Origin: an uncultured Gemmatimonadales bacterium
GTDB lineage: Bacteria > Gemmatimonadota > Gemmatimonadetes > Gemmatimonadales > GWC2-71-9
DNA length: 64,000 nucleotides
Reading direction: 5' to 3'
Assembly: GCA_963815325.1 (NCBI GenBank)
Contig: CAWFGG010000002.1
Location: 709,472-773,471, forward strand
Made by a program: the position numbers and the translations under genes. The notes under the pieces are model-generated. The model was not told where the DNA came from, did no database searches, and worked only from the letters and a program-made list of their open reading frames with translations. Shown here piece after piece: positions 2,557 through 59,435 of this stretch. Position 1 is the stretch's first letter. Every line of letters starts with the position of its first letter.

Positions 2557-3555
2557 TTGCCGCCAAGGTACACCGTGGTCGTCAAAAATACAGCGAGGCG
2601 TATGCAGGCGCTCTGGCTCGACAAGCAGCACCTGACCCTTCGGGATGATATCCCCCGGCCCAAGCCGCCTACGGGCGAGGCGCTGGTCCGCGTGCTCCAG
2701 GCCGGCATCTGCAACACCGACCTGGAGCTCGTGCGGGGTTACTACCCCTACAATGGAATTCTTGGGCACGAGTTTGTGGGCCTAGTCGAACAGGGGCCAA
2801 GCGAGTTGGTAGGAAGTAAGGTGGTGGGGGAGATCAATGCCGTGTGTCACCAATGCCACGCCTGCCGCGAGGGCCGGTCGACCCACTGCGCCAACCGCAC
2901 GGTCCTGGGAATCGTGAACCGACATGGCGCCTTCGCCGAGTACCTGACGCTGCCGGTCGAAAATCTCTACATGGTACCGGACAACGTCACGACCGATGCC
3001 GCGACCTTCACCGAGCCGCTCGCGGCGGCGCTCGAGATCCAGCAGCAGATCGCCGTCACCCCCGACGACCACGTGCTGGTGGTGGGCGACGGGAAGCTGG
3101 GCCAGCTGATCGCGCAGACGCTGGCGCTCACCGGTTGCGAGCTTCTCGCGGTAGGCCGGCACCAGGAGAAGCTCGACCTGTTGGAACAACGCGGCATCCG
3201 GACCGGACTGGGCGACCGGGTCGAGCCCGGCCGCTACGACGTCGCGGTCGAGTGCACCGGCAACCCGGACGGATTCGCCCTGGCCCAACAGGCCCTCCGG
3301 CCGCGCGGCACGCTGGTCATGAAGAGCACCTATGCCGGCCAGCTGACCTTCGACGCCTCGGCGGTCGTGGTCAACGAGATCACGCTGGTGGGCTCGCGCT
3401 GCGGGCCGTTCCCTCCGGCCCTCCGGCTCCTGGCCGAACGGCGCGTGGACGTCCTCCCACTCATCGACGCGCGCTACCCATTGAGCGACGGGTTCGCCGC
3501 GATGGAGCACGCGGCCCGGAAGGGAACGCTCAAGGTGCTCCTGACGATGGAGTGA
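2557..3555 (+). CDS. zinc-dependent alcohol/threonine-dehydrogenase-family oxidoreductase (MDR superfamily)
   Basis: 332-aa ORF. Catalytic-Zn region 'GICNTDLELVRG...GHEFVG', structural-Zn Cys cluster 'CHQCHACREGRSTHC', Rossmann 'VVGDGKLG'. Confidence 0.85.
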   Translation: MPPRYTVVVKNTARRMQALWLDKQHLTLRDDIPRPKPPTGEALVRVLQAGICNTDLELVRGYYPYNGILGHEFVGLVEQGPSELVGSKVVGEINAVCHQCHACREGRSTHCANRTVLGIVNRHGAFAEYLTLPVENLYMVPDNVTTDAATFTEPLAAALEIQQQIAVTPDDHVLVVGDGKLGQLIAQTLALTGCELLAVGRHQEKLDLLEQRGIRTGLGDRVEPGRYDVAVECTGNPDGFALAQQALRPRGTLVMKSTYAGQLTFDASAVVVNEITLVGSRCGPFPPALRLLAERRVDVLPLIDARYPLSDGFAAMEHAARKGTLKVLLTME

Positions 3556-3560
3556 TGGTG

Positions 3561-3623
3561 AGCTAGTTGCTAGTCTCTGGTCGCTAGTCTCTAGTCTCGG
3601 TTCTCCTTACTCCTTACTCCATT
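3561..3623. repeat. heptamer microsatellite tracts: TAGTCTC-like units (3561-3598), then CTCCTTA x3 (3603-3623)
   Basis: Read directly: 'gctagttgctagtctctggtcgctagtctctagtctc' followed by 'ctcctta ctcctta ctccatt'. Starts 6 nt after the ADH stop codon. Confidence 0.8.
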
Positions 3624-3660
3624 ACCCTCGGTGCTGTCATCTACCCTCGGTGCTGTCATC
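3623..3660. repeat. perfect 19-bp tandem duplication 'taccctcggtgctgtcatc' x2, including the left terminus of the MITE-like element
   Basis: 3623-3641 and 3642-3660 are identical. The second unit runs straight into 'ccgagcgaagcgaggg'. Confidence 0.9.
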
Positions 3661-3793
3661 CCGAGCGAAGCGAGGGATCTCCTCAACGGTTCCCCGAAAG
3701 CGGCCTCGCCATGCGGCTCCCCGACCATGCGTTAATGAGATCCCTCGGGCACTTCGTGCCCTCGGGATGACAATTGGAGAAATGATCGACCTC
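3653..3793 (+). mobile_element. MITE-like / REP-like palindromic element, copy A (141 bp)
   Basis: Terminal inverted repeats: 'tgtcatcccgag' at the left end and 'ctcgggatgaca' at the right. Inner arms 'gagggatctc'/'gagatccctc'. A same-length, same-orientation copy lies at 8114-8254. No coding capacity beyond shadow ORFs. Confidence 0.6.
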
Positions 3794-3843
3794 CTCACTC
3801 CTTACTCCTTACTCCTTACTTCTTGCTCCTCAGTCCTCACTCC
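3791..3843. repeat. heptamer microsatellite (CTCCTYA)n, about 7.5 units; reads (TRAGGAG)n on the minus strand
   Basis: 'ctcctca ctcctta ctcctta ctcctta cttcttg ctcctca gtcctca ctcc'. Overlaps the stop codon (3837-3839) of the minus-strand amidohydrolase gene. Confidence 0.85.
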
Positions 3844-4542
3844 CCGCCAGTTCCCCGCACAGGGCAGCCACGCACCGCGCGCCGCACTTCCCGGCCGCGA
3901 GCGCCACGCCCCTTCATGTGCTTCTGGTTCACCTCGAGCTCGATCCCGAGATAGGCCGACGGGGGGAACCGGGTTCGCAGGTACGTGGTGAGGCCGTCGG
4001 TGTTGCCCCGATAGGGATAGTTCCGGCGCACGACGATCCGGGGACTCACGCCGCGGATCCTCTGCTGGATGGCTTTGCAGAACGACACTTCGAGACGGCG
4101 TGCGGGATCGTACAGGAGGCCGACGTCGGCCGTGCGGGTGACGTCGCGAAGACGAGGGGTGAAGCTGTGCACGCTCAGGTGCACCACCCGCCGACCGTCG
4201 CGGACCAGTCGCGCAAGTGCGACCATCGAGTTCGGTGCGGAACGGGACGTAGTACCGCTCGAGCACCAGGGCGCGCTCGTCGGGCCCGAGGCTGCGGGAG
4301 AACTCGGAGAACACGCGCGGGTGGTGCGGTGAGCGGTTGAGCTCGACCAAGAGTCGGGTCGTCCGGGAGGCCACGAGCGGGGCACGGAGCCGCCGGGCAA
4401 GTCTCACCGCGAGATCGAGCGCGCCCGCGTCATAGCCGCGATGGCTGGACAGGACCCGCCCGGCAGACGCGAACAAGTGGGCATAGCGCCGTGGAACCGT
4501 GTTGCCGCCGTGCTCGCACGACACCACCACGGCGCTAGGCAT
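3837..4542 (-). pseudogene. N-formylglutamate-amidohydrolase-fold (FGase/HutG-like) hydrolase, disrupted by a 1-nt frame change near 4227
   Basis: The N-terminal half 'MPSAVVVSCEHGGNTVP...ERYYVPFRTEL' is in the frame of ORF 3802-4575. The C-terminal half 'MVALARLVRDGRRVVHLSVHSFTPRL...YLGIELEVNQ' is in the frame of ORF 3837-4400. Together they give a colinear FGase-like protein. This could be a true pseudogene or an assembly indel. Confidence 0.7.
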
Positions 4543-5781
4543 CGTGGCCTGAGCTGCCTCCCCTCGGCCAGGCACGCCGCCAACTCCCGGTAGAGCGGCA
4601 CCATCCCGTCGCGAGATGGTCTACTGCCCAACCTGGCCAGCATGCGACGGGCGAGGCATCCGTCGCGCCCGATGACACCGAGCGGCGCATGCAATTCGGC
4701 CGCAATGGTGCCGTTGGTGCAGTATCGCTCCGCCAGCGCCCGCCAGAGATCCCCCACCGTGCGGCTCGGCGCGCCGCCACATCCCAACAGCATCAGGTAG
4801 TCGCCGTCCGGAACCGGTGCCGTGTCAGCCTGGTGAATGGTCGACTCCAGGAGTGCCCGCAACGCGGCACCCGGATAATCGCGCTGATCGGTCCACCGGC
4901 TGGTCTCCTCCGTGGCGAGCGCCTCGACCACCGCCGACACGAGGGCCGCGATGGCCACGTCGGCCTGGGGACATTCCTGCATGTCGATCACCCGGATCTC
5001 GACCGTGCCGCGGTCGAATCGAGCGATGGCCCCCCGGGCGTTTACCCACTCGTCCCGAAGGATTCCTTCGGGATCGAGCGGTGCCAAGTCGCGGTAGATG
5101 GGTTCGAGGATGCGTTCATTGTACTCCGCTTCCGACTCGACCGGTTCGGGAATGACCGCGCCGGCAATGGACGGGACGCGGGCGGCATTCGACTGATAGA
5201 CCGCGAGCCGGGTATCGAGCGAGCCGCTGACCACGCCGTCCGCGATGGGCGTGCTCGCGGCCAGGGCGGGGATGATCGGCAGCACTCAGACGAATAGCCG
5301 AGTGGAGCCTGGCGAACTCCGCGTCATCGGAGAAAGGCAGGTTGACGTGAACGCTTTGGAGATTGGCCCACCCGTGGCGGGCGCAATCGAACAGGCGATC
5401 GAATGTGGCGTACACCTCGTGGAACTCATGCGGCCAAATACGAAATTCCTGCTGCGGGTCCATCCAGGGGTGGGTGCCGGTTGGCAGGAGGCGCGCGTCC
5501 CACGACTCGAGCCGCTCATTGATGTACGCGACTTCGCCCTGGAATTGATCTGCGAGCCCGACGAGCGTGTCGACCGGGCCGTTGGTCTTGAGCTCGATCA
5601 GATGGAGCGCCAGCTCGTTGGACCAGCCCATGTTGCCGCGCTCGACATCGCACACGATGGTACCGGCCTCGGCTTCGAGCAGCCGGTCGGCAATGGGACG
5701 AACGACGAGAGACTCGGCATCGACGATCATGTACTCGAGCTCGATCCCGATCGCCTCGAACAGGCCGAGACGGGCGGTCAT
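4404..5781 (-). pseudogene. GCS2-type carboxylate-amine ligase (glutamate-cysteine-ligase family 2), frame change near 5286; true 3' end uncertain
   Basis: ATG 5779-5781 overlaps the upstream TGA (ATGA). 'MTARLGLFEAIGIELEYMIVD...FARLHSAIRL' is in one frame and 'VLPIIPALAASTPIADG...VEIRVIDMQECP...' continues in another. The second frame has no stop until 4404, which is 138 nt inside the next gene. The natural end is probably near 4535-4545. Confidence 0.7.
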
Positions 5782-7253
5782 AGCCTGGCCGGAGCCACGC
5801 CTCGTTCGTCGAGTTTGGTCCGGAAGTACTGCATGATGGACAGGTAGAGCTGGTCCCCCAGGATGGTGTCCTCGTACCCGGCGTCGATGGAGGGGTTGTC
5901 GTTGATCTCGATGATCCGGAACTTCCCGTCGATCTCCTTCACGTCCACACCGTAGAGTCCGTCGCCGACCAACGAGGCGGCCTTGACGCCCAACTCGACG
6001 GCGCGGGCCGGCGCGTCCTCCAACGCCACCGCTTCCACCTTGCCGTACCGTCGGCGGCCAGGGCGCCCACTGATGATCTGCCAATGGCCCCGTGCCATGT
6101 GGTATTTGCAGACATAGAGCGCCTCGCGATTCAGCACGCCGATCCGCCAGTCGAACCCGGTCGGCAGCCATTCCTGCACGATGGCCAGGTCGGACTGCTC
6201 GAACACCTGCTTCAAACACTCCACGAATTGGTCGTGCCCCTGCTCGATCTTGATGACCCCCTGCGAGAACGAGCTGTCCGGCAGCTTCACGACACAGGGA
6301 AACCCGATGGCGGCGGCGACCTCCTCGACATTGTCCTCATGAACCACCATGGTCTTCGGACACGGCAGGTCATAGCGGTCGAACAGCTCCGCCTGGTACA
6401 CCTTGTTCGAGCACCGGATGATCGATTCGGGGTCGTCCACGACAATCAGCCCCTCGGTCGCGGCGCGTTGGGCAAATCGAAATGTGTGGTGATCGACCGA
6501 GGTCACTTCGCGAATAAAGAGGGCGTCGAACTCCGCAATGCGACCGTAGTCCTCGGGACCGATGACGCTCGCGGCGATGCCGACGTCCTGCCCCGCTGCA
6601 ATGAACTTCTTGATCGAACGTTCCCAGGACGGGGCGTTTTCATCGAGTGGGTTCCAGAGAATCGCCAGATCGTAGCGGGCCACCTGGGGCTTCGCTCGGC
6701 GCGCGTGCTTCGGCTTGGCGAAGTACCGCCCCGCCTCGGCCTCCACGAAATCCTGGTGGGCTTCGGGGATTTCGCTGGTCGCAATGGCGCGGAGTCCCTG
6801 CAACTTCCAGCGCGCGTCCTCCCAGACAAAGCTGGCGCGGAGAAACGGCGCGGGAAACTGATTGAAGAGCGCACGGCTCAGCCGATCGTAGCGCTTCGCC
6901 AGGTTGCGCCCGAAGTAGATGCTCAGCTCGAATGATTCGGACTTGAGCGGCGCCAGGTTCCGTTGAATCAGATCGTCCAGGTCCTCCCCCACGATGCGCA
7001 GAATGGGCGAGAGCTGGAGCGCCTGGATGGTGGCCACCGAGGGCATGGGTTTGTGCCCCCGAGCGGCAGCGAGCAGCGATACGTAATAGCCCAGCCCTTG
7101 GTAGCCGTACCGGCGGCAGAGGTTGTAGACCGTGGTTCGGCGCAGTTCGGCGTAGCGCGGATCGGTCAGATAGGCGCGAGCCGAGACGACGTCCACGCCG
7201 GGAATCGTGAAGTGCCACCGCTTGGTGTTCTCGATGACGACGAGTGGCTTCAT
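5778..7253 (-). CDS. RimK-like ATP-grasp amidoligase with a roughly 200-aa N-terminal extension
   Basis: Intact 491-aa ORF. ATP-grasp blocks 'GFPCVVKLPDSSFSQGV', 'AIVQEWLPTGFDWRIGVL', 'GVDVKEIDGKFRIIEINDNPSID'. The N-terminal region 'YGYQGLGYYVSLLAAARGH' resembles the RimK-like ATP-grasp N-terminal domain as I recall it. Start ATG overlaps the upstream stop. Confidence 0.85.
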   Translation of the reverse strand: MKPLVVIENTKRWHFTIPGVDVVSARAYLTDPRYAELRRTTVYNLCRRYGYQGLGYYVSLLAAARGHKPMPSVATIQALQLSPILRIVGEDLDDLIQRNLAPLKSESFELSIYFGRNLAKRYDRLSRALFNQFPAPFLRASFVWEDARWKLQGLRAIATSEIPEAHQDFVEAEAGRYFAKPKHARRAKPQVARYDLAILWNPLDENAPSWERSIKKFIAAGQDVGIAASVIGPEDYGRIAEFDALFIREVTSVDHHTFRFAQRAATEGLIVVDDPESIIRCSNKVYQAELFDRYDLPCPKTMVVHEDNVEEVAAAIGFPCVVKLPDSSFSQGVIKIEQGHDQFVECLKQVFEQSDLAIVQEWLPTGFDWRIGVLNREALYVCKYHMARGHWQIISGRPGRRRYGKVEAVALEDAPARAVELGVKAASLVGDGLYGVDVKEIDGKFRIIEINDNPSIDAGYEDTILGDQLYLSIMQYFRTKLDERGVAPARL

Positions 7254-7975
7254 GGTTGGCTGGTGCCAGGCTGGATGACGAGCAGGTTAGCATCGTAGGT
7301 CAGTGCGCCGAGCAGCACCGCGCCCAACAGCCGCTGAATGCCCACCGAATAGTAGTGGGTGCCGAACCGCGGGTTGTCTTGGAAGGGATCTGCCACCAAT
7401 GCCTCGCGACTATCCGGGTCGTACCCGTAGAGCACCACGAAGTGCCCGGCCGGCTCTCCCCGGACATCGTCGTAGTAGAGCTTTTCCTTCCCACGCTCGC
7501 GCGCGCACCCGAACAGGTAGGTGGCGCTGAGCCCGGTTAGGACCGGGTGGCCACGGTTCAAGTATCGTCTTATCAAATCAGGGTTCAGTTCCTTGAACCG
7601 GATCCGGCCGCCCAGTTCGAGGAACCGGAGGTAGGCCTTCGTCGCAAAGCGAAGCTTCGCCGAGCGCTTGACCTTGGCCTGCGACCTGAGCCGTCCCGCC
7701 AAATCGACCTTCCGATCACCAAACCAGCTCGGGTCGAACACGTCGAGGTTGTAGGTGAAGATGGTGGCTTGGTAACCACGCTCGAGCGCGTGGCACGCCA
7801 AGAGGACCGCCAGGGTCCCGCCGCCTTTCAGTGGCTTGATCTCGTCGATGACCTGGCCCAGCGAGATAGTGTCGCCATAGTAGCGATAGACCGCATGCAG
7901 GCAAGTCGGCCCACAGGTCATGTCGTTGGGCTGGGGAAGGATCTCGAGGGTGAGCTTGGAGCTGCGGGGGTCCAC
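7250..7975 (-). CDS. papain-like cysteine peptidase (C39-like)
   Basis: 241-aa ORF with a GTG start. Catalytic-Cys motif 'QPNDMTCGPTCL' and His motif 'GHFVVLYGYD'. Stop overlaps the ATG of the ATP-grasp gene (7250-7253). Confidence 0.75.
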   Translation of the reverse strand: MDPRSSKLTLEILPQPNDMTCGPTCLHAVYRYYGDTISLGQVIDEIKPLKGGGTLAVLLACHALERGYQATIFTYNLDVFDPSWFGDRKVDLAGRLRSQAKVKRSAKLRFATKAYLRFLELGGRIRFKELNPDLIRRYLNRGHPVLTGLSATYLFGCARERGKEKLYYDDVRGEPAGHFVVLYGYDPDSREALVADPFQDNPRFGTHYYSVGIQRLLGAVLLGALTYDANLLVIQPGTSQP

Positions 7976-8113
7976 TGCAATTACGCCTTTCGTGCGGCAG
8001 TACGCGGGCGAGAAGTCTCAATGGTGCCGGGTCCGTCGTCAAGGGCAGGGATGTCTGACGCCTCAGCGGTTGGGCGGCCCGAAGGTTAGGCACGCACGGT
8101 TGCCCATCCCAGG

Positions 8114-8254
8114 CTGTCATCCCGAGCAAAGCGAGGGATCTCCTCAACCGTGCCCCGAACGCGGGCTCGTCCACGTAACCTACCGGCATGAGTCAGTAAG
8201 ATCCCTCGGGCGCTTCGCACCCTCGGGATGACAATCGGAGAAATACCCGACCTC
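8114..8254 (+). mobile_element. MITE-like / REP-like palindromic element, copy B (141 bp)
   Basis: Same termini and orientation as copy A. By-eye alignment shows the left ~50 nt and right ~57 nt nearly identical and the centre divergent. One compensatory a-t to g-c change in the 'gggcac ttc gtgccc' mini-hairpin. Confidence 0.6.
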
Positions 8255-8328: not shown

Positions 8329-8349
8329 CTCCCTACTCCCTACTCCTCC
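8329..8349. repeat. short heptamer tract CTCCCTA CTCCCTA CTCCTCC
   Basis: Read directly. Related to the CTCCTTA tract next to copy A. Confidence 0.6.
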
Positions 8350-8425
8350 CGCCTTCCCGCCTCGCCGTGTGCAAATCTCCCCCCTAGACGCATCTCCCGC
8401 GCGAACAGTCACTCAGGAGGACGAA

Positions 8426-10693
8426 ATGTACCGCCAACTGACGCTCGTTGCCGCCCTGACGGTGGGGGCCGCGACGGCCTTGCCCGCCCAGGGGTGGGTT
8501 GAACTCGAGACCCCCCGGAGGCCCGGCATCGTCATGGGGCCGGTCGTTCGGGTGAGTTCCAACGTCCGGACCACCATCGATGGGCGCGTCGCCCGGGTCG
8601 AGGTGGAGGAGCAGTTCAGAAACACCGGCCCCAGCATCGCGGAGGGGAGTTACCTCTATCCTCTGCCCAAGAACGCCGTGTTCAGCGACTTCTCGCTCTG
8701 GATGGGCGAGCAGGAGATCACCGGTGAGATCATGAACGCCGATGAGGCGCAGAAGATCTACGAGGACATCGTGCGCCGGCTGAAGGACCCTGCCCTGCTT
8801 TCCTTCGAAGGCCACGGTCTCATTCGCGCTCGGGTCTTCCCCATCCAGGCGGGTGAGACGCGCCGGGTGAAGCTCCGCTACACGCAGGTGCTCGACCGGG
8901 CCGGCGATGCCCTCCGGCTGCGTTACAGCATCGGGCCGCGCCATCACGGACCCGAGCACGGCCAGGGTGGAACCGACGCCTCCTTCCGCGACAACTTCAG
9001 CTATCAGGTGACAGTTCCGAGCGCGGATGACATCGGGACACCCTATTCGCCGACCCACCCGATCGAGACCGAACGACGGAACGGCCGGTTGATCGTCACG
9101 TTGAGCCCCAATGCCGTCGGCGACGTAGATCTCTTCATTCCGCTCCGCCGTGGTTTGGTCGGCACCAGCATCCTGACCCACGCCCCTGGTGGTGAAGACG
9201 GCTTCTTCATGCTGCTCCTCGCCCCGCCGCACAACGAGACGGGCCAAGTGGTCCCGCGCGACCTTTCGCTCGTGGTGGACGTCTCCGGCTCCATGTCGGG
9301 GGACAAGTTGGAGCAGGCCAAGCAGGCTATGACGCAGGCCTTGGGGACGCTGCGCCCGGCGGACCGTTTCCAGCTCGTCGCGTTCTCCTCCGGCATCCGC
9401 CATTTCCGTGAGGGGTTCACCCCTGCCACGGCGGCCAACCTTGCTCAAGCCCGCCGATTCGTGGCAAATCTGACCGCGACCGGAGGCACCAATATCGCCG
9501 GCGCGCTCGACGCGGTACTCGGCAGCGCGGTTGCCGAGGACCGGTTGCCCATCATCGTGTTCATGACCGATGGGTTACCCTCGGTTGGCGAGCGGGAACC
9601 CGATCGTATCGCCGAAGCAGCGTCGAATCGGATCGGACGCGCGCGCATCTTCACCGTCGGCGTCGGCCACGACGTCAACACCTATCTGCTCGACCGGCTC
9701 GCGGTCGAGGGGCGCGGAAGCGCCGAATACGTCGCACCAGATGCCGACGTGGAGGTCGCGGTAGGATCGCTGCTGTCCAAGATTCAATTCCCGGCGCTGG
9801 TCAACCTGCGGATCGTCAGCTCGCCGGTCGAGTTCCGCCAGGACTACCCGGCCGAGCTTCCCGACTTGTTCTACGGCGAGGAATTGGTGGTGTTCGGCCG
9901 GTATCATGGCCAGGCCACCGGGACCGTGGTGATCGAAGGCGAGCGGAACGGCCGTCGAGAGCGGTTCACCGCCCGGGCAGCCTTCCCACGAAGCGAGCAT
10001 GACAACGACTACATCCCGCGGCTCTGGGCCGCGCGCAGAATCGGCGACCTGACCCGGACCATCCGGATCGAGGGATCAACCCCCGACCTGATCAACGAAG
10101 TGCGGGACCTGGGCCTTCGGTACGGCATCATCACGGAGTACACGTCCTACCTGGTGCTGGAACCGGGCATGCAACCAGGGGTGGCTCGGGATGACATGCG
10201 CCAGAACGCGCCCATGACCCCAGCGCTGCAAGGCGGGGCGAGACAGGCCCGGGCCCAAACCGGCCGGGAAGCATTCAAACGGGCCGAGGCCAGCTCGGAG
10301 ATGGCGAGTGCCAAGACCCTGGCCGCGGCAGATGCGGTCGCGGAAAGCCGCATGCGGGCCATAGGCGGCCTGTCGGATGAGCGGGAGGGAGATGCGGTGA
10401 ACGCCCGCGAGGCCCAGGTTCGCCGAGTAGCCGGCCGCCTGTTCGTGCGGCACGGTGCGACGTGGACCGACGCACGGCACAGCGATAGCCTCACGGTCAT
10501 CGAGGTCGCGCCATTCAGCGATGCCTACTTTGCCCTGGTCCGGGCACTGCCCGAGATCAGACCTTACCTTTCAACCGACGGCAGCGTGTTGGTCGCCGGC
10601 CGGCAGGTCAGCATCAAGTTCGCAGCAGCCGGGCTCGAATCGATGTCGGAACGCCGCATCAACCAGGTGGTTCGTATGTTTCGAGGTACATGA
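8426..10693 (+). CDS. secreted VIT-domain + von Willebrand factor A-domain protein
   Basis: ATG 8426 is preceded by 'aggagg' 6 nt upstream; the track ORF starts at GTG 8369. Signal peptide 'MYRQLTLVAALTVGAATALPAQG'. VIT-like N-terminus 'ARVEVEEQFRN...YLYPLP...FSLWMGE'. vWA MIDAS motif 'VVDVSGSMSG'. Confidence 0.85.
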   Translation: MYRQLTLVAALTVGAATALPAQGWVELETPRRPGIVMGPVVRVSSNVRTTIDGRVARVEVEEQFRNTGPSIAEGSYLYPLPKNAVFSDFSLWMGEQEITGEIMNADEAQKIYEDIVRRLKDPALLSFEGHGLIRARVFPIQAGETRRVKLRYTQVLDRAGDALRLRYSIGPRHHGPEHGQGGTDASFRDNFSYQVTVPSADDIGTPYSPTHPIETERRNGRLIVTLSPNAVGDVDLFIPLRRGLVGTSILTHAPGGEDGFFMLLLAPPHNETGQVVPRDLSLVVDVSGSMSGDKLEQAKQAMTQALGTLRPADRFQLVAFSSGIRHFREGFTPATAANLAQARRFVANLTATGGTNIAGALDAVLGSAVAEDRLPIIVFMTDGLPSVGEREPDRIAEAASNRIGRARIFTVGVGHDVNTYLLDRLAVEGRGSAEYVAPDADVEVAVGSLLSKIQFPALVNLRIVSSPVEFRQDYPAELPDLFYGEELVVFGRYHGQATGTVVIEGERNGRRERFTARAAFPRSEHDNDYIPRLWAARRIGDLTRTIRIEGSTPDLINEVRDLGLRYGIITEYTSYLVLEPGMQPGVARDDMRQNAPMTPALQGGARQARAQTGREAFKRAEASSEMASAKTLAAADAVAESRMRAIGGLSDEREGDAVNAREAQVRRVAGRLFVRHGATWTDARHSDSLTVIEVAPFSDAYFALVRALPEIRPYLSTDGSVLVAGRQVSIKFAAAGLESMSERRINQVVRMFRGT

Positions 10694-58392: not shown

Positions 58393-58677
58393 CTACCCCT
58401 GACGCAGAAGCGCCAGCTTGCGCGCGCGGGAGAGCCGCTTGATCTCGGCCTCGCGTTTGAGCGCCGCGGAACGGCTCGGGCTGTGTTCCCGATATACCAC
58501 CGAGACCGGTGTGCGGGCTCGGGTGTACTTGGACGCGGTTCCGTCCCGGTGTGCCGCGAGCCGCTGGGCGACGTCCCGAGCGATCCCGGTGTACAGCGAG
58601 CCGTCGCGGCACTCGAGCATGTAAACCCACCAGCCGTCGGCCTTCACCCGGCTGGTGGCCACCGGCTTCCGGATCAC
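58393..58677 (-). CDS. small GIY-YIG nuclease-family protein (UPF0213/YhbQ-like)
   Basis: GTG 58677 overlaps the upstream TGA (GTGA). 'WWVYMLECRDGSLYTGIARDVAQRLAAH...KYTRARTPVSVVY...REAEIKRLSRARK'. Confidence 0.8.
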   Translation of the reverse strand: MIRKPVATSRVKADGWWVYMLECRDGSLYTGIARDVAQRLAAHRDGTASKYTRARTPVSVVYREHSPSRSAALKREAEIKRLSRARKLALLRQG

Positions 58678-59435
58678 TCGGGCTGGGTGAGCGCCCGAAC
58701 TTCGTCGGGCAACGCGAACATCGAGTCCGGCACTTCGCCGCTCTCCATGCTGGTAAAGGTCATGATCTGCTCCATGCCCATGACCCGCTGCACCGTCTTG
58801 TGCGGCAGCAGTACCCCACCCACGGGCTGCCAATCCGACACGAGCGACGTGGCTTCCATATCGCCCATCGCGGTCGAGCGGGTTCGGACAGAGCCCACGA
58901 GAAGACCGGTCGTGCGATCGAAGAAGTCGAAATATTCCTCGCCACCCGCGGTGGTTACCTTCACGCGGTAACAGGGGGTGCCCTCGAACTCCTCCTCGCC
59001 GATGGTCTCGACCGCCGCGAAGAGCCGCTTGGGATAGAGCATGCTGTAGAAATCGGCGCTTTGCTGCATCTGCTGGAGGGACAGCCCATCGAGAAGCATG
59101 GGTCCTTCCATCGGATTGAGCGTCCAACCGACCGTTCCGTCGTAGCCATTCTTGACGGTAACCATCCCGGGGATCACGACCGTGACGGCCAGCTTGTTCG
59201 GGGCCTTCGCATATACCTCGAGATCACCGACGACACCTTGGGCCGGCACCTCGAGGCGACCCGTCACATGGCGCGCGGTCTGCTGCATGACGGCCGCTTC
59301 GCCGCCAACGGCCTCGACGAACCGGCGGATGACGGCGGGCCCATCGGGCAACGTTGCCCCCTGGGCGACAACCGTCGTGGGGAGCAGGGCAAGCAACAGG
59401 GCACCGGGTACCAACTGCACGCGAAGCTTCATCAT
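58674..59435 (-). CDS. secreted LolA-like / lipoprotein-sorting-fold protein
   Basis: ATG 59435 behind 'aaggag'. Signal 'MMKLRVQLVPGALLLALLPTTVVAQG'. Fold call is a weak by-eye impression. Confidence 0.5.
   Translation of the reverse strand: MMKLRVQLVPGALLLALLPTTVVAQGATLPDGPAVIRRFVEAVGGEAAVMQQTARHVTGRLEVPAQGVVGDLEVYAKAPNKLAVTVVIPGMVTVKNGYDGTVGWTLNPMEGPMLLDGLSLQQMQQSADFYSMLYPKRLFAAVETIGEEEFEGTPCYRVKVTTAGGEEYFDFFDRTTGLLVGSVRTRSTAMGDMEATSLVSDWQPVGGVLLPHKTVQRVMGMEQIMTFTSMESGEVPDSMFALPDEVRALTQPE

What the first reader, a model, noticed from the sequence alone, without database searches (positions are those of the whole stretch)
3653..8254. The cassette is bracketed by two same-orientation copies of a 141-bp hairpin-forming MITE-like element
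Copy A is 3653-3793 and copy B is 8114-8254.
- Both are 141 bp and share the same orientation.
- Both carry the terminal inverted repeats 'tgtcatcccgag' and 'ctcgggatgaca', and the inner arms 'gagggatctc'/'gagatccctc'.
- By-eye alignment shows the left ~50 nt and right ~57 nt nearly identical while the centre has diverged.
- One stem position in the 'gggcac ttc gtgccc' mini-hairpin changes a-t to g-c, which is compensatory.

Copy A ends 44 nt from the last gene's stop. Copy B starts 139 nt upstream of the first gene's start. The two copies therefore delimit the whole operon. Direct repeats like this could mediate excision or loss by recombination, mark a former composite insertion, or supply promoter and terminator structure.
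Basis: seen in the sequence. Interest (0 to 1): 0.6.

Follow-up and report, generated by a model that had tools for sequence, protein, structure and literature searches.

The report
Mobile hairpin repeats flanking an operon
The two 141-bp hairpin repeats on either side of this four-gene operon are gene-less copies of a tiny, widespread element that normally carries a small single-strand-DNA nuclease gene, and they arrived after the operon was already in place, so they mark selfish-DNA insertions and not a mobile gene cassette.

Summary
Copies A (3653-3793) and B (8114-8254) are real, share orientation and are the only two in 64 kb. Their ends are about 91% identical and the centre is scrambled (11/29).

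Each copy is an inverted doublet of two 28-36-nt arms built as GTC|ATCCC-hairpin-GGGAT|C. This is the plan of the Neisseria NTS / "Ssn-related motif" hairpins (Chenal et al. 2025). Those hairpins are the ssDNA targets of small GIY-YIG nucleases (Ssn).

A 507-bp full-length element has ends 34/35 identical to copy B's and carries a 106-aa GIY-YIG gene. It occurs at another locus (L151). It apparently also sits at the copy-B site itself in a 99.5%-identical strain (L148).

The arm 25-mer occurs in at least 120 genome stretches from many phyla.

The composite-cassette reading fails. Three relatives at 85-90% identity keep the order ADH, cassette, VIT-vWA with no element. Relatives at 95% or more carry the copies.

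No promoter or terminator signal was found. Verdict: a new member of a known kind, a MITE-like derivative of an Ssn-type element. The bracketing is probably incidental.

The parts
3653..3793 (+). Copy A: gene-less (MITE-like) doublet of two inverted Ssn-type hairpin arms, a 49-nt variable centre, and a 21-nt tail shared with copy B
3654..3681 (+). Copy A simple arm, TGTCATCCCGAGCGAAGCGAGGGATCTC. It reads as GTC|ATCCC..GGGAT|C on the + strand.
3737..3772 (-). Copy A extended arm, TGTCATCCCGAGGGCACGAAGTGCCCGAGGGATCTC on the - strand, with a 6-bp inner stem
8114..8254 (+). Copy B: same architecture. Its ends are 34/35 identical to the ends of the 507-bp full-length element.
8115..8142 (+). Copy B simple arm, TGTCATCCCGAGCAAAGCGAGGGATCTC
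8198..8233 (-). Copy B extended arm, TGTCATCCCGAGGGTGCGAAGCGCCCGAGGGATCTT on the - strand
3623..3660 (+). Perfect 19-nt tandem duplication (TACCCTCGGTGCTGTCATC x2). It includes the first 8 nt of copy A.
3603..3625 (.). Heptamer array (CTCCTTA)n to the left of copy A. With 3791-3843 it shows that copy A sits inside a heptamer array.
3791..3843 (.). Heptamer array (CTCCTTA)x7.6 immediately to the right of copy A
8329..8346 (.). Heptamer array (CTCCCTA)x2.6 to the right of copy B. It is much longer in L154.
7250..7975 (-). First gene of the bracketed operon: C39-like peptidase (context, not part of the element)
5778..7253 (-). RLAN/RimK-type ATP-grasp ligase (context)
4535..5781 (-). GCS2-family carboxylate-amine ligase. 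In this window it is broken by 1-nt insertions at about 5286 and about 4544 (context).
3837..4542 (-). N-formylglutamate amidohydrolase-family gene. It is broken by 1-nt insertions at about 4217 and about 3871 (context).

Best explanation
**What the copies are**
- Copies A and B are non-autonomous, MITE-like doublets of an Ssn-type hairpin element.
- The autonomous form is about 507 bp. It consists of an extended arm, a 122-nt leader, a 106-aa single-domain GIY-YIG nuclease gene and an inverted simple arm.
- Each arm has the plan GTC | ATCCC - G.A/A.G - inner stem-loop - GGGAT | C. This is the plan of the Neisseria NTS / Ssn-related motifs.

**Shown here**
- The architecture of the arms.
- The shared ends with the gene-bearing element.
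- The tight physical link of these arms to this GIY-YIG gene family.
- The cross-phylum spread of the arm.
- The copies are present in relatives at 95% identity or more and absent from relatives at 90% or less that have the same gene order.

**Inferred from Chenal et al. 2025, not tested here**
- A cognate Ssn nuclease binds the folded arm only in single-stranded DNA and nicks a few nt 5' of GTC.
- Because each doublet carries one forward arm per strand, either strand of the region would be cut just outside both ends of the cassette.
- This nicking probably drives spread or conversion of the element.
- In a transformable host with the nuclease, it would lower recombination across the bracketed genes.

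**Why the operon is bracketed**
- The bracketing is most likely a by-product.
- The two insertions landed in the two long, heptamer-repeat-rich spacers that flank the operon in all relatives.
For: **Arm architecture**
- ssDNA folds of all four arms give the same shape as the NTS consensus.
- The inner stem varies in sequence but stays paired across the family: mean 1.76 outer-in pairs against 0.60 in shuffles, reached by 0 of 500 shuffles.

**Link to the GIY-YIG gene**
- L048 has arm + GIY-YIG ORF + inverted arm in 364 nt.
- In L091 the gene's stop codon lies inside an arm.
- Of the 120 best of 7518 homologs, 48 end in the arm-encoded ...PSLRSG*.
- All are PF01541.

**Same lineage**
- L151 carries a 507-bp full-length element whose ends are 34/35 identical to copy B and 32/36 and 32/34 identical to copy A.
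- L148 is 99.5% identical to the window. It carries that element, 97.2% identical to L151's, next to the identical left flank of copy B.

**Timing of insertion**
- Empty sites in L122, L123 and L153.
- Filled sites in L001, L149, L154 and L155.

**Spread**

**Published biochemistry of the family**
- PMC11893778.
Against: **Membership gaps**
- The arms do not match the published degenerate SRM search pattern. There are 0 hits in the window and all four arms fail. The cause is the tandem G.A mismatch in the stem.
- Membership of the associated proteins in the Ssn clade (cd10448) could not be tested. No CDD tool and no Neisseria SsnA sequence were available. The best PDB relative is a UPF0213 protein at E = 2e-8.

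**No nuclease gene in the window**
- No Ssn-type gene lies in the 64-kb window.
- The only GIY-YIG gene (58393-58680) is UPF0213-like, 36% identical to the L148 protein, and has no arms beside it.

**Relation to the full-length element**
- The 49-nt centres of A and B do not align to the interior of the full-length element. They are not simple deletion products.
- L148 could be a k=31 de Bruijn chimera joined through the 32-nt shared arm.

**Missing signs of transposition**
- No target-site duplication was seen.
- No clean empty site at near-identity was obtained, because the spacers of the 85-90% relatives are unalignable.

**Adjacent placement**
- Two random insertions landing on adjacent spacers has a probability of only a few percent. 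This is my estimate, not a computation.
Confidence: 0.8

Rival explanations
1. Adaptive 'NTS-gene-NTS' insulation. The two doublets are kept because, with a resident Ssn nuclease, they cut incoming single-stranded DNA on both sides of the cassette. This limits replacement or repair of the genes by transformation, as shown for Neisseria.
For: - Same plan of arms as the NTS.
- The published 5-fold effect of the NTS-gene-NTS configuration on transformation.
- These are the only two copies in 64 kb, and they flank one operon.
- Both copies are retained in relatives at 95% identity or more.
- The window's GCS2 and FGase carry four private frameshifts. This would fit poor recombinational repair, though the link is weak.
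Against: - No Ssn gene in the window.
- Competence of Gemmatimonadales is unknown.
- Relatives at 85-90% identity keep the operon without any element.
- The spacers are heptamer-rich and long in all relatives, which makes them permissive landing sites.
Confidence: 0.12
2. Composite mobile cassette. The two direct repeats are the ends of a unit that brought the four genes in, or that can excise them by recombination.
For: - Same orientation, with 51/56 and 42/46 identical stretches. These could support RecA-dependent deletion.
Against: - The order ADH, cassette, VIT-vWA is conserved in L122, L123 and L153 without the elements.
- The cassette occurs in many more distant loci with no arm nearby.
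- No cassette-less allele and no solo-element allele was seen.
Confidence: 0.03
3. Transcript-level element. The hairpins act as terminator, attenuator, RNA-stability or promoter-proximal structures for the operon.
For: - Strong predicted RNA hairpins, better on the operon's strand.
- Copy A lies between convergent genes and copy B between divergent genes.
Against: - No T-run terminator or sigma-70-like promoter in or beside the copies.
- No Rfam family.
- The same arms occur in every kind of context across phyla and at the ends of a nuclease gene.
- Neisseria SsnA does not act on RNA.
- Relatives express the same operon without the elements.
Confidence: 0.04
4. REP/REPIN of a RAYT (IS200/IS605-like Y1 transposase). 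This is an ordinary extragenic palindrome doublet mobilised by a tyrosine transposase.
For: - The doublet of two inverted, individually palindromic units with a short spacer looks like a REPIN.
- No target-site duplication.
Against: - The gene found between or beside these arms is GIY-YIG (PF01541), not Y1_Tnp.
- The 5' tetranucleotide is GTCA, not GTAG.
- The arm is conserved across phyla, unlike species-specific REPs.
Confidence: 0.01

Closest known systems
NTS / Ssn-related motifs (SRM) with SsnA GIY-YIG ssDNA nucleases (Chenal et al., Nat Commun 2025, PMC11893778)
   Same: - Oriented hairpin repeat: GTC + A(T)TCCC...GGGA(A)T + C.
- 20-50-nt hairpins found at both ends of a gene of about 100 aa for a single-domain GIY-YIG protein.
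- Intergenic, multi-copy, found in several phyla, and sometimes surrounding gene groups.
   Different: - The arms fail the published degenerate search pattern, because of a tandem G.A mismatch and a longer inner stem.
- Here the repeats occur as inverted doublets with one simple and one extended arm and no gene between them (MITE-like). The words MITE, doublet and REPIN do not occur in that paper.
- The nuclease activity of these particular proteins is untested.
Neisseria dRS3 repeat (ATTCCC-N8-GGGAAT)
   Same: Our core is ATCCC-N(11-19)-GGGAT, the same palindromic frame. About half of the dRS3 copies are NTS.
   Different: One T shorter in the outer stem, a longer interior, and a different phylum.
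REP / REPIN with RAYT transposases, and the IS200/IS605 family (my own knowledge, and as discussed in PMC11893778)
   Same: - Hairpin units recognised as ssDNA.
- Inverted doublets forming a long hairpin.
- A single small gene flanked by the repeats.
- No target-site duplication.
- Intergenic accumulation.
   Different: - The enzyme fold is GIY-YIG, not HUH/Y1.
- The conserved 5' motif is GTCA, not GTAG.
- The arm sequence is conserved across phyla.
Classical bacterial MITEs (for example Neisseria Correia elements; my own knowledge)
   Same: - 100-150 bp with terminal inverted repeats shared with a gene-bearing partner.
- Unrelated interior.
- Intergenic.
- Breaks short-read assemblies.
   Different: - The partner encodes a GIY-YIG nuclease of 106 aa, not a DDE transposase.
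- No target-site duplication detected.
Integron attC sites (my own knowledge)
   Same: Imperfect palindromes with conserved ends and a variable centre that flank gene cassettes in one orientation and act as folded single strands.
   Different: - No RYYYAAC/GTTRRRY core sites.
- No integrase.
- The 'cassette' is a syntenic chromosomal operon.

Membership tests
Ssn-related motif (SRM/NTS) hairpin repeats | Hairpin-forming imperfect palindrome of 20-50 nt | tested here: met
   All four arms fold as ssDNA hairpins: outer stem ATCCC/GGGAT, a 2x2 G.A loop and an inner stem. The extended arms give -8 to -10 kcal/mol with z of -2.1 to -3.8. The simple arms are weak by the nearest-neighbour model, at -3.5 kcal/mol.
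Ssn-related motif (SRM/NTS) hairpin repeats | Conserved non-palindromic 5' flank (..GTC) that gives orientation, and a C directly after the palindrome | tested here: met
   GTC|ATCCC...GGGAT|C in all four arms, against NTS CGTC|ATTCCC...GGGAAT|C.
Ssn-related motif (SRM/NTS) hairpin repeats | Match to the published degenerate pattern HGTCWYN(0-2)YYVSBRHN(0-5)WNVSBRGN(0-2)RNCYNB | tested here: not met
   0 matches in the window and none in any arm. Simulated sequence gives about 1 match per window.
Ssn-related motif (SRM/NTS) hairpin repeats | Found flanking genes for small single-domain GIY-YIG proteins | tested here: met
   L048, L091, L148, L151 and L152. Arm-encoded C-termini occur in 48 of the 120 best homologs.
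Ssn-related motif (SRM/NTS) hairpin repeats | Many copies per genome, mostly intergenic | tested here: inconclusive
   Only 64 kb of the source genome is held, with 2 doublets, both intergenic. Family-wide there are at least 120 stretches, with the scan cut at its limit. Short-read contigs break inside the arms.
Ssn nuclease family (cd10448) for the associated protein | Single GIY-YIG domain, about 90-110 aa, no extra domain | tested here: met
   PF01541 covers residues 2-72 of 106 aa in L148 and L151, and 6-76 in L091 and L048.
Ssn nuclease family (cd10448) for the associated protein | Assignment to CDD cd10448, or BLASTP E < 1e-10 to N. meningitidis SsnA | not testable with these tools
   There is no CDD search, no SsnA sequence is held, and the paper's supplements are not held. 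NCBIfam gives no match. The nearest solved structure is UPF0213 BH0048, E = 1.9e-8.
Ssn nuclease family (cd10448) for the associated protein | Site-specific cleavage of ssDNA only, a few nt 5' of the motif | not testable with these tools
   This needs biochemistry.
MITE (non-autonomous derivative of an autonomous element) | Shares terminal inverted repeats with a gene-bearing partner in the same lineage, and has no coding capacity itself | tested here: met
   Copy B's ends are 34/35 and 34/35 identical to the 507-bp L151 element. The interior is 49 nt with no ORF.
MITE (non-autonomous derivative of an autonomous element) | Presence/absence polymorphism among related genomes | tested here: met
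   Absent from L122, L123 and L153. Present in L154, L155, L001 and L149.
MITE (non-autonomous derivative of an autonomous element) | Target-site duplication | tested here: inconclusive
   There are no direct repeats at the element borders of A, B or L151. The empty sites are too diverged to align. A 19-nt tandem duplication spans the left edge of copy A.
REP/REPIN-RAYT | Associated Y1 (IS200-like) transposase and a GTAG 5' motif | tested here: not met
   The associated genes are GIY-YIG. The motif is GTCA.
Composite transposon / mobile cassette | The bracketed genes move with the repeats and are absent from the same site in relatives | tested here: not met
   Same synteny without the repeats in three relatives.

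The most novel reading that the evidence does not exclude
**The reading**
- Ssn-type GIY-YIG genes framed by these hairpins are true, currently active mobile elements.
- At about 507 bp they would be among the smallest autonomous elements known.
- They spawn MITE-like doublets and move without target duplication through ssDNA hairpin nicking.
- They have spread horizontally across many bacterial phyla with an almost invariant 25-nt arm.

**What the data contribute**
- In this Gemmatimonadales lineage the same site would switch between a full-length and a gene-less form in strains 99.5% identical.
- Chenal et al. raised the IS-like architecture only as a hypothesis.
- The presence/absence series and the two-locus full-length copies found here would be the first comparative evidence for mobility.
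Probability: 0.45. Interest if true: 0.65.

Novelty: new member of a known kind. Interest (0 to 1): 0.38.

Why it matters
**For this window**
- It removes the idea that the peptide-ligase operon is a mobile cassette.
- It explains the repeats as insertions of a known class of hairpin element.

**More widely**
- It extends the 2025 Ssn/NTS system to Gemmatimonadota and Acidobacteriota.
- It adds an arm variant that the published search pattern misses.
- It supplies a defined candidate recognition sequence, GTCATCCCGAGCGAAGCGAGGGATC, and matching 106-aa proteins for ssDNA-nuclease work.
- It gives comparative evidence (empty, gene-less and full-length alleles) bearing on whether these elements are mobile.

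**Practical consequences**
- Many contigs in soil metagenomes end inside these arms.
- Many 'hypothetical proteins' and the C-termini of GIY-YIG proteins carry arm-encoded peptides such as PSLRSG, VIPSEARDL and IPRFARDD.

Tried and rejected
**Searches that found nothing**
- Rfam at gathering and at E <= 10: nothing relevant.
- Full-text search for the arm sequence and five variants: 0 papers.
- The published SRM and NTS patterns in the window: 0 hits.
- NCBIfam on the GIY-YIG proteins: no family.
- The supplements of the Ssn paper are not held.
- A 2026 bioRxiv paper that mentions SsnA could not be opened.
- Exact look-ups of the ADH and VIT-vWA proteins with two start codons each, meant to find near-identical empty alleles: not on record.

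**Analyses that led nowhere**
- Aligning the 49-nt centres of A and B to the interior of the full-length element gave only noise. A simple-deletion origin is rejected.
- Aligning the empty spacers of L122 and L123 to define exact insertion borders failed, because the spacers are unalignable heptamer arrays.
- Heptamer arrays as a specific target: 19% of Gemmatimonadota arms lie near one against 4% of random positions. Both features are intergenic and only 5 of 27 arms are involved, so no claim is made.

**Leads judged to be chance or irrelevant**
- The 13-mer CTGTCATCCCGAG at 10184-10196 inside VIT-vWA is a coding coincidence. It encodes VARDDM, and the same residues occur in L123 with different codons.
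- The window's own GIY-YIG gene (58393-58680) as the cognate nuclease: it is UPF0213-like, 36% identical to the L148 protein, and has no arms nearby.
- Promoter and terminator scan: nothing in the elements.
- Viral contigs: 7 carry the arm, none with an ssn gene nearby.

Full report
**Observation**

Identity between them is 51/56 over positions 1-56, 11/29 over 57-85, 42/46 over 86-131 and 7/10 over 132-141. The terminal inverted repeats TGTCATCCCGAG/CTCGGGATGACA and the inner GAGGGATCTC/GAGATCCCTC are present in both.

The 28-nt end occurs twice in the window and never in 100 shuffles. BLAST with short words and a structure-aware scan for GTC-stem-loop-stem-C find only these four arms above a background of about five chance hits.

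Both copies fold into a long hairpin. The - strand, which is the strand of the bracketed operon, folds better: -68 and -71 kcal/mol with z about -4.6, against -58 kcal/mol for the + strand.

The 'compensatory' A-T to G-C change is real. The adjacent pair, however, becomes C.A on the + strand and is a T.G wobble only on the - strand. Distances to the genes are as stated, 43 and 138 nt.

**What lies between and around the copies**

All bracketed genes are on the - strand:
- a C39-like peptidase (7250-7975);
- an RLAN/RimK ATP-grasp ligase (5778-7253);
- a GCS2-family ligase (5781 to about 4535);
- an N-formylglutamate-amidohydrolase-family gene (4542-3837).

A Zn-dependent alcohol dehydrogenase (2557-3555, +) lies to the left and a VIT-vWA protein (8369-10693, +) to the right. 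Cluster mates at 90% identity or more are named Gemmatimonadales bacterium, and the source contig is 838,076 bp long.

**Anatomy of the element**

Each copy is an inverted doublet.
- The left end read on the + strand is the simple arm, TGTCAT CCCGAGC GAA GCGAGGG ATCTC.
- The right end read on the - strand is the extended arm, TGTCAT CCCGAG GGCAC GAA GTGCC CGAGGG ATCTC.

As single-stranded DNA every arm folds the same way: GTC, then an outer stem ATCCC/GGGAT, a 2x2 G.A/A.G internal loop, an inner stem closed on a GAA-type triloop, then C.

I collected 252 arms from other genomes.
- The short inner segment is C-NNN-G in almost all of them, with CGAAG in 132.
- At least ten unrelated longer inner hairpins occupy the same place.
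- Mean nested pairs are 1.76 against 0.60 in shuffles, and 0 of 500 shuffles reach the observed value.

So the arm is a structured unit with a conserved frame and a free interior.

**The family elsewhere**

The hosts include Acidobacteriota, Gemmatimonadota, Alpha-, Beta- and Gammaproteobacteria, Verrucomicrobiota, Kiritimatiellia, Planctomycetota, Armatimonadota, Chloroflexota, Patescibacteria, Omnitrophota and a Clostridia MAG.

- Most occurrences are inverted doublets of 65-120 nt with a variable loop.
- Some are lone arms or same-orientation arrays.
- Seven IMG/VR contigs also carry the arm.
- No Rfam family matches.
- A full-text search for the sequence found no paper.

**The partner gene**

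- In L091 a 106-aa GIY-YIG ORF ends inside an arm...GAT CCC TCG CTT CGC TCG GGA TGA, read as DPSLRSG*.
- In L048 a GIY-YIG ORF sits exactly between two inverted arms in a 364-nt unit.
- A database search with the L091 protein returned 7518 homologs.
- Of the best 120, 48 end in ...PSLRSG*.
- Others end in peptides of arm variants, and several N-termini contain VIPSEARDL, the arm read in another frame.
- All are single-domain PF01541 proteins.

**The same lineage as the window**

L148 is a Logan contig of run ERR12037365, 99.5% identical to window 6396-8157. It continues from the C39 gene through the identical flank GACAGCCTGGGATGGGCAACCGTG into the simple arm. It then runs through a 106-aa GIY-YIG ORF and a 122-nt leader to the extended arm, where the contig ends.

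L151, an ENA contig, holds a 97.2%-identical copy of this 507-bp element. There it lies between an NmrA-like gene and another gene, so it is at a different locus.

- Copy B's two ends are 34/35 identical to those of the full-length element.
- Copy A's ends are 32/36 and 32/34 identical.
- The 49-nt centres are not alignable to the interior.

This is the usual relation between a MITE and its autonomous partner.

One caveat applies. The arm shared by L148's interior and site B is 32 nt, so a k=31 assembly could in principle have joined them wrongly. L151 does not depend on this.

**Is the operon a mobile cassette?**

No. Relatives fall into two groups.

| Locus | Identity to window | Gene order | Element at site A | Element at site B |
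|---|---|---|---|---|
| L122 | 90% | ADH, cassette | absent | spacer only partly covered (99 nt); no arm in it |
| L123 | 85-91% | ADH, cassette, VIT-vWA | absent | absent |
| L153 (GCA_035464955.1) | 88-90% | cassette, VIT-vWA | not covered | absent |
| L154 | 96-98.5% | cassette, VIT-vWA | not covered | copy B present |
| L155 (GCA_004525115.1) | 95% | cassette | copy A present | copy B present |

- In L122, L123 and L153 the spacers are 82-330 nt of heptamer arrays.
- In L154 and L155 the copies sit at the same positions as in the window.
- Short-read contigs L001, L149 and L150 end inside the arms of copy B.
- More distant homologs of the cassette in 20 other loci have no arm nearby.

The operon was therefore in place before the elements arrived. 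Both insertions fall on the branch leading to the clade at 95% identity or more.

**Comparison with what is known**

Chenal et al. (Nat Commun 2025, PMC11893778) described the Neisseria NTS, CGTCATTCCCGCGMAVGCGGGAATCYRG, which contains the dRS3 repeat. They also described its relatives in other bacteria, the 'Ssn-related motifs' (SRM). Their main findings were:
- These hairpins are the ssDNA-only binding sites of SsnA, a 94-aa single-domain GIY-YIG nuclease.
- SsnA cuts a few nt upstream of the motif.
- The three bases before the palindrome (GTC) govern cutting, and the C just after it governs binding.
- 71% of ssn homologs have an SRM nearby, and 42% have one on both sides.
- The NTS-gene-NTS configuration lowers transformation about 5-fold.
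- The authors note that NTS-ssnA-NTS looks like an insertion sequence and compare it with REP/RAYT.

Our arm has the same frame: GTC|ATCCC...GGGAT|C against GTC|ATTCCC...GGGAAT|C. It shows the same association with the gene.

Two points temper membership.
- The arms do not match the published degenerate pattern, because of the G.A mismatch.
- I could not test whether the proteins fall in cd10448.

The words MITE, doublet, REPIN, Acidobacteria and Gemmatimonadetes do not occur in that paper.

**Mechanism**

Shown here:
- the structure of the arms;
- the shared ends with the gene-bearing element;
- the gene association;
- the presence/absence series among relatives.

Inferred by analogy:
- A cognate nuclease, not encoded in this window, binds the folded arm in ssDNA and nicks 5' of GTC.
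- Each doublet has one forward arm per strand.
- Either strand of this region would therefore be cut just outside the cassette on both sides.
- Such nicks could drive copying or conversion of the element.
- In a transformable host they could reduce recombination across the bracketed genes.

Whether the bracketing is selected cannot be decided from 64 kb. Two random insertions into adjacent spacers have a probability of a few percent (my estimate). Against that, the two spacers are the long, heptamer-rich ones in all relatives.

No promoter- or terminator-like signal lies in the elements.

**Verdict**

The MITE reading is right and now has a partner gene. The composite-cassette reading is wrong. 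The element is a new sequence member of the Ssn/SRM kind, in a doublet form that the describing paper does not treat.

Noticed in passing
window about 5286, 4544, 4217 and 3871 (GCS2 5781 to about 4535; FGase 4542-3837, - strand): Four single-base insertions, none in a homopolymer run, split GCS2 and FGase into two frames each. They are absent from L122, L123, L154 (which covers two of them) and L155. No other indel occurs in 8.5 kb aligned to L154. They are either recent pseudogenisation of the last two operon genes or local consensus errors of a long-read assembly.
   Followed up: partly
window 3563-3625, 3791-3843, 8329-8346; L122, L123, L153 and L154 spacers; L151 flanks: The spacers on both sides of the operon consist of tandem heptamer arrays whose unit differs between relatives: CTCCTTA, CTAGTCT and CTCCCTA here, GGCTATT/CCAATAG in L122, L123 and L153, and GGAGTGA/GGAGTAG x14 in L154. 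Period-7 arrays are common in other Gemmatimonadota loci too. Their function is unknown.
   Followed up: partly
window 3623-3660; also L008, L014, L019, L032, L048, L097, L103, L111: A truncated 5' stub of the arm (TGTCATCC, sometimes up to ...CGAGCGAAG) sits about 20 nt upstream of many full elements in several phyla. In the window it takes the form of a perfect 19-nt tandem duplication. It may be a footprint of insertion or nicking near the arm, or of slippage at the hairpin base.
   Followed up: no
window 58393-58680 (- strand): A UPF0213/YhbQ-like GIY-YIG gene, 36% identical to the L148 Ssn-type protein. It has no arms beside it and shares a terminator-like hairpin with the convergent upstream gene.
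   Followed up: partly
L091 4478-5226, L100 321-855 and 4446-4624, L116 3917-7183: Arrays of up to seven same-orientation arms and arm fragments lie on both sides of a GIY-YIG gene or of ordinary genes in Acidobacteriota. This architecture differs from the inverted doublet.
   Followed up: no
L001, L149 (end at window 8228), L150 (ends at 8147), L148 (starts inside the extended arm), L155 (ends inside copy A): Independent short-read contigs stop inside the arms. This shows that the repeat breaks assemblies and is multi-copy or polymorphic in those samples.
   Followed up: yes
window 3773-3793 and 8234-8254: Copies A and B share a further 21 nt beyond the right inverted repeat (AATYGGAGAAATNNNCGACCTC). 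This tail is not present next to the full-length element in L151, so the copied unit of the two MITEs is longer than the palindrome.
   Followed up: partly
L156-L162 (IMG/VR contigs): Seven predicted viral contigs carry the exact arm, and one carries three copies. No Ssn-type gene was detected next to them.
   Followed up: partly
window 10184-10196 (- strand): An exact 13-mer of the element terminus lies inside the VIT-vWA gene. It is a coding coincidence: it encodes VARDDM, and the same residues occur in L123 with different codons.
   Followed up: yes
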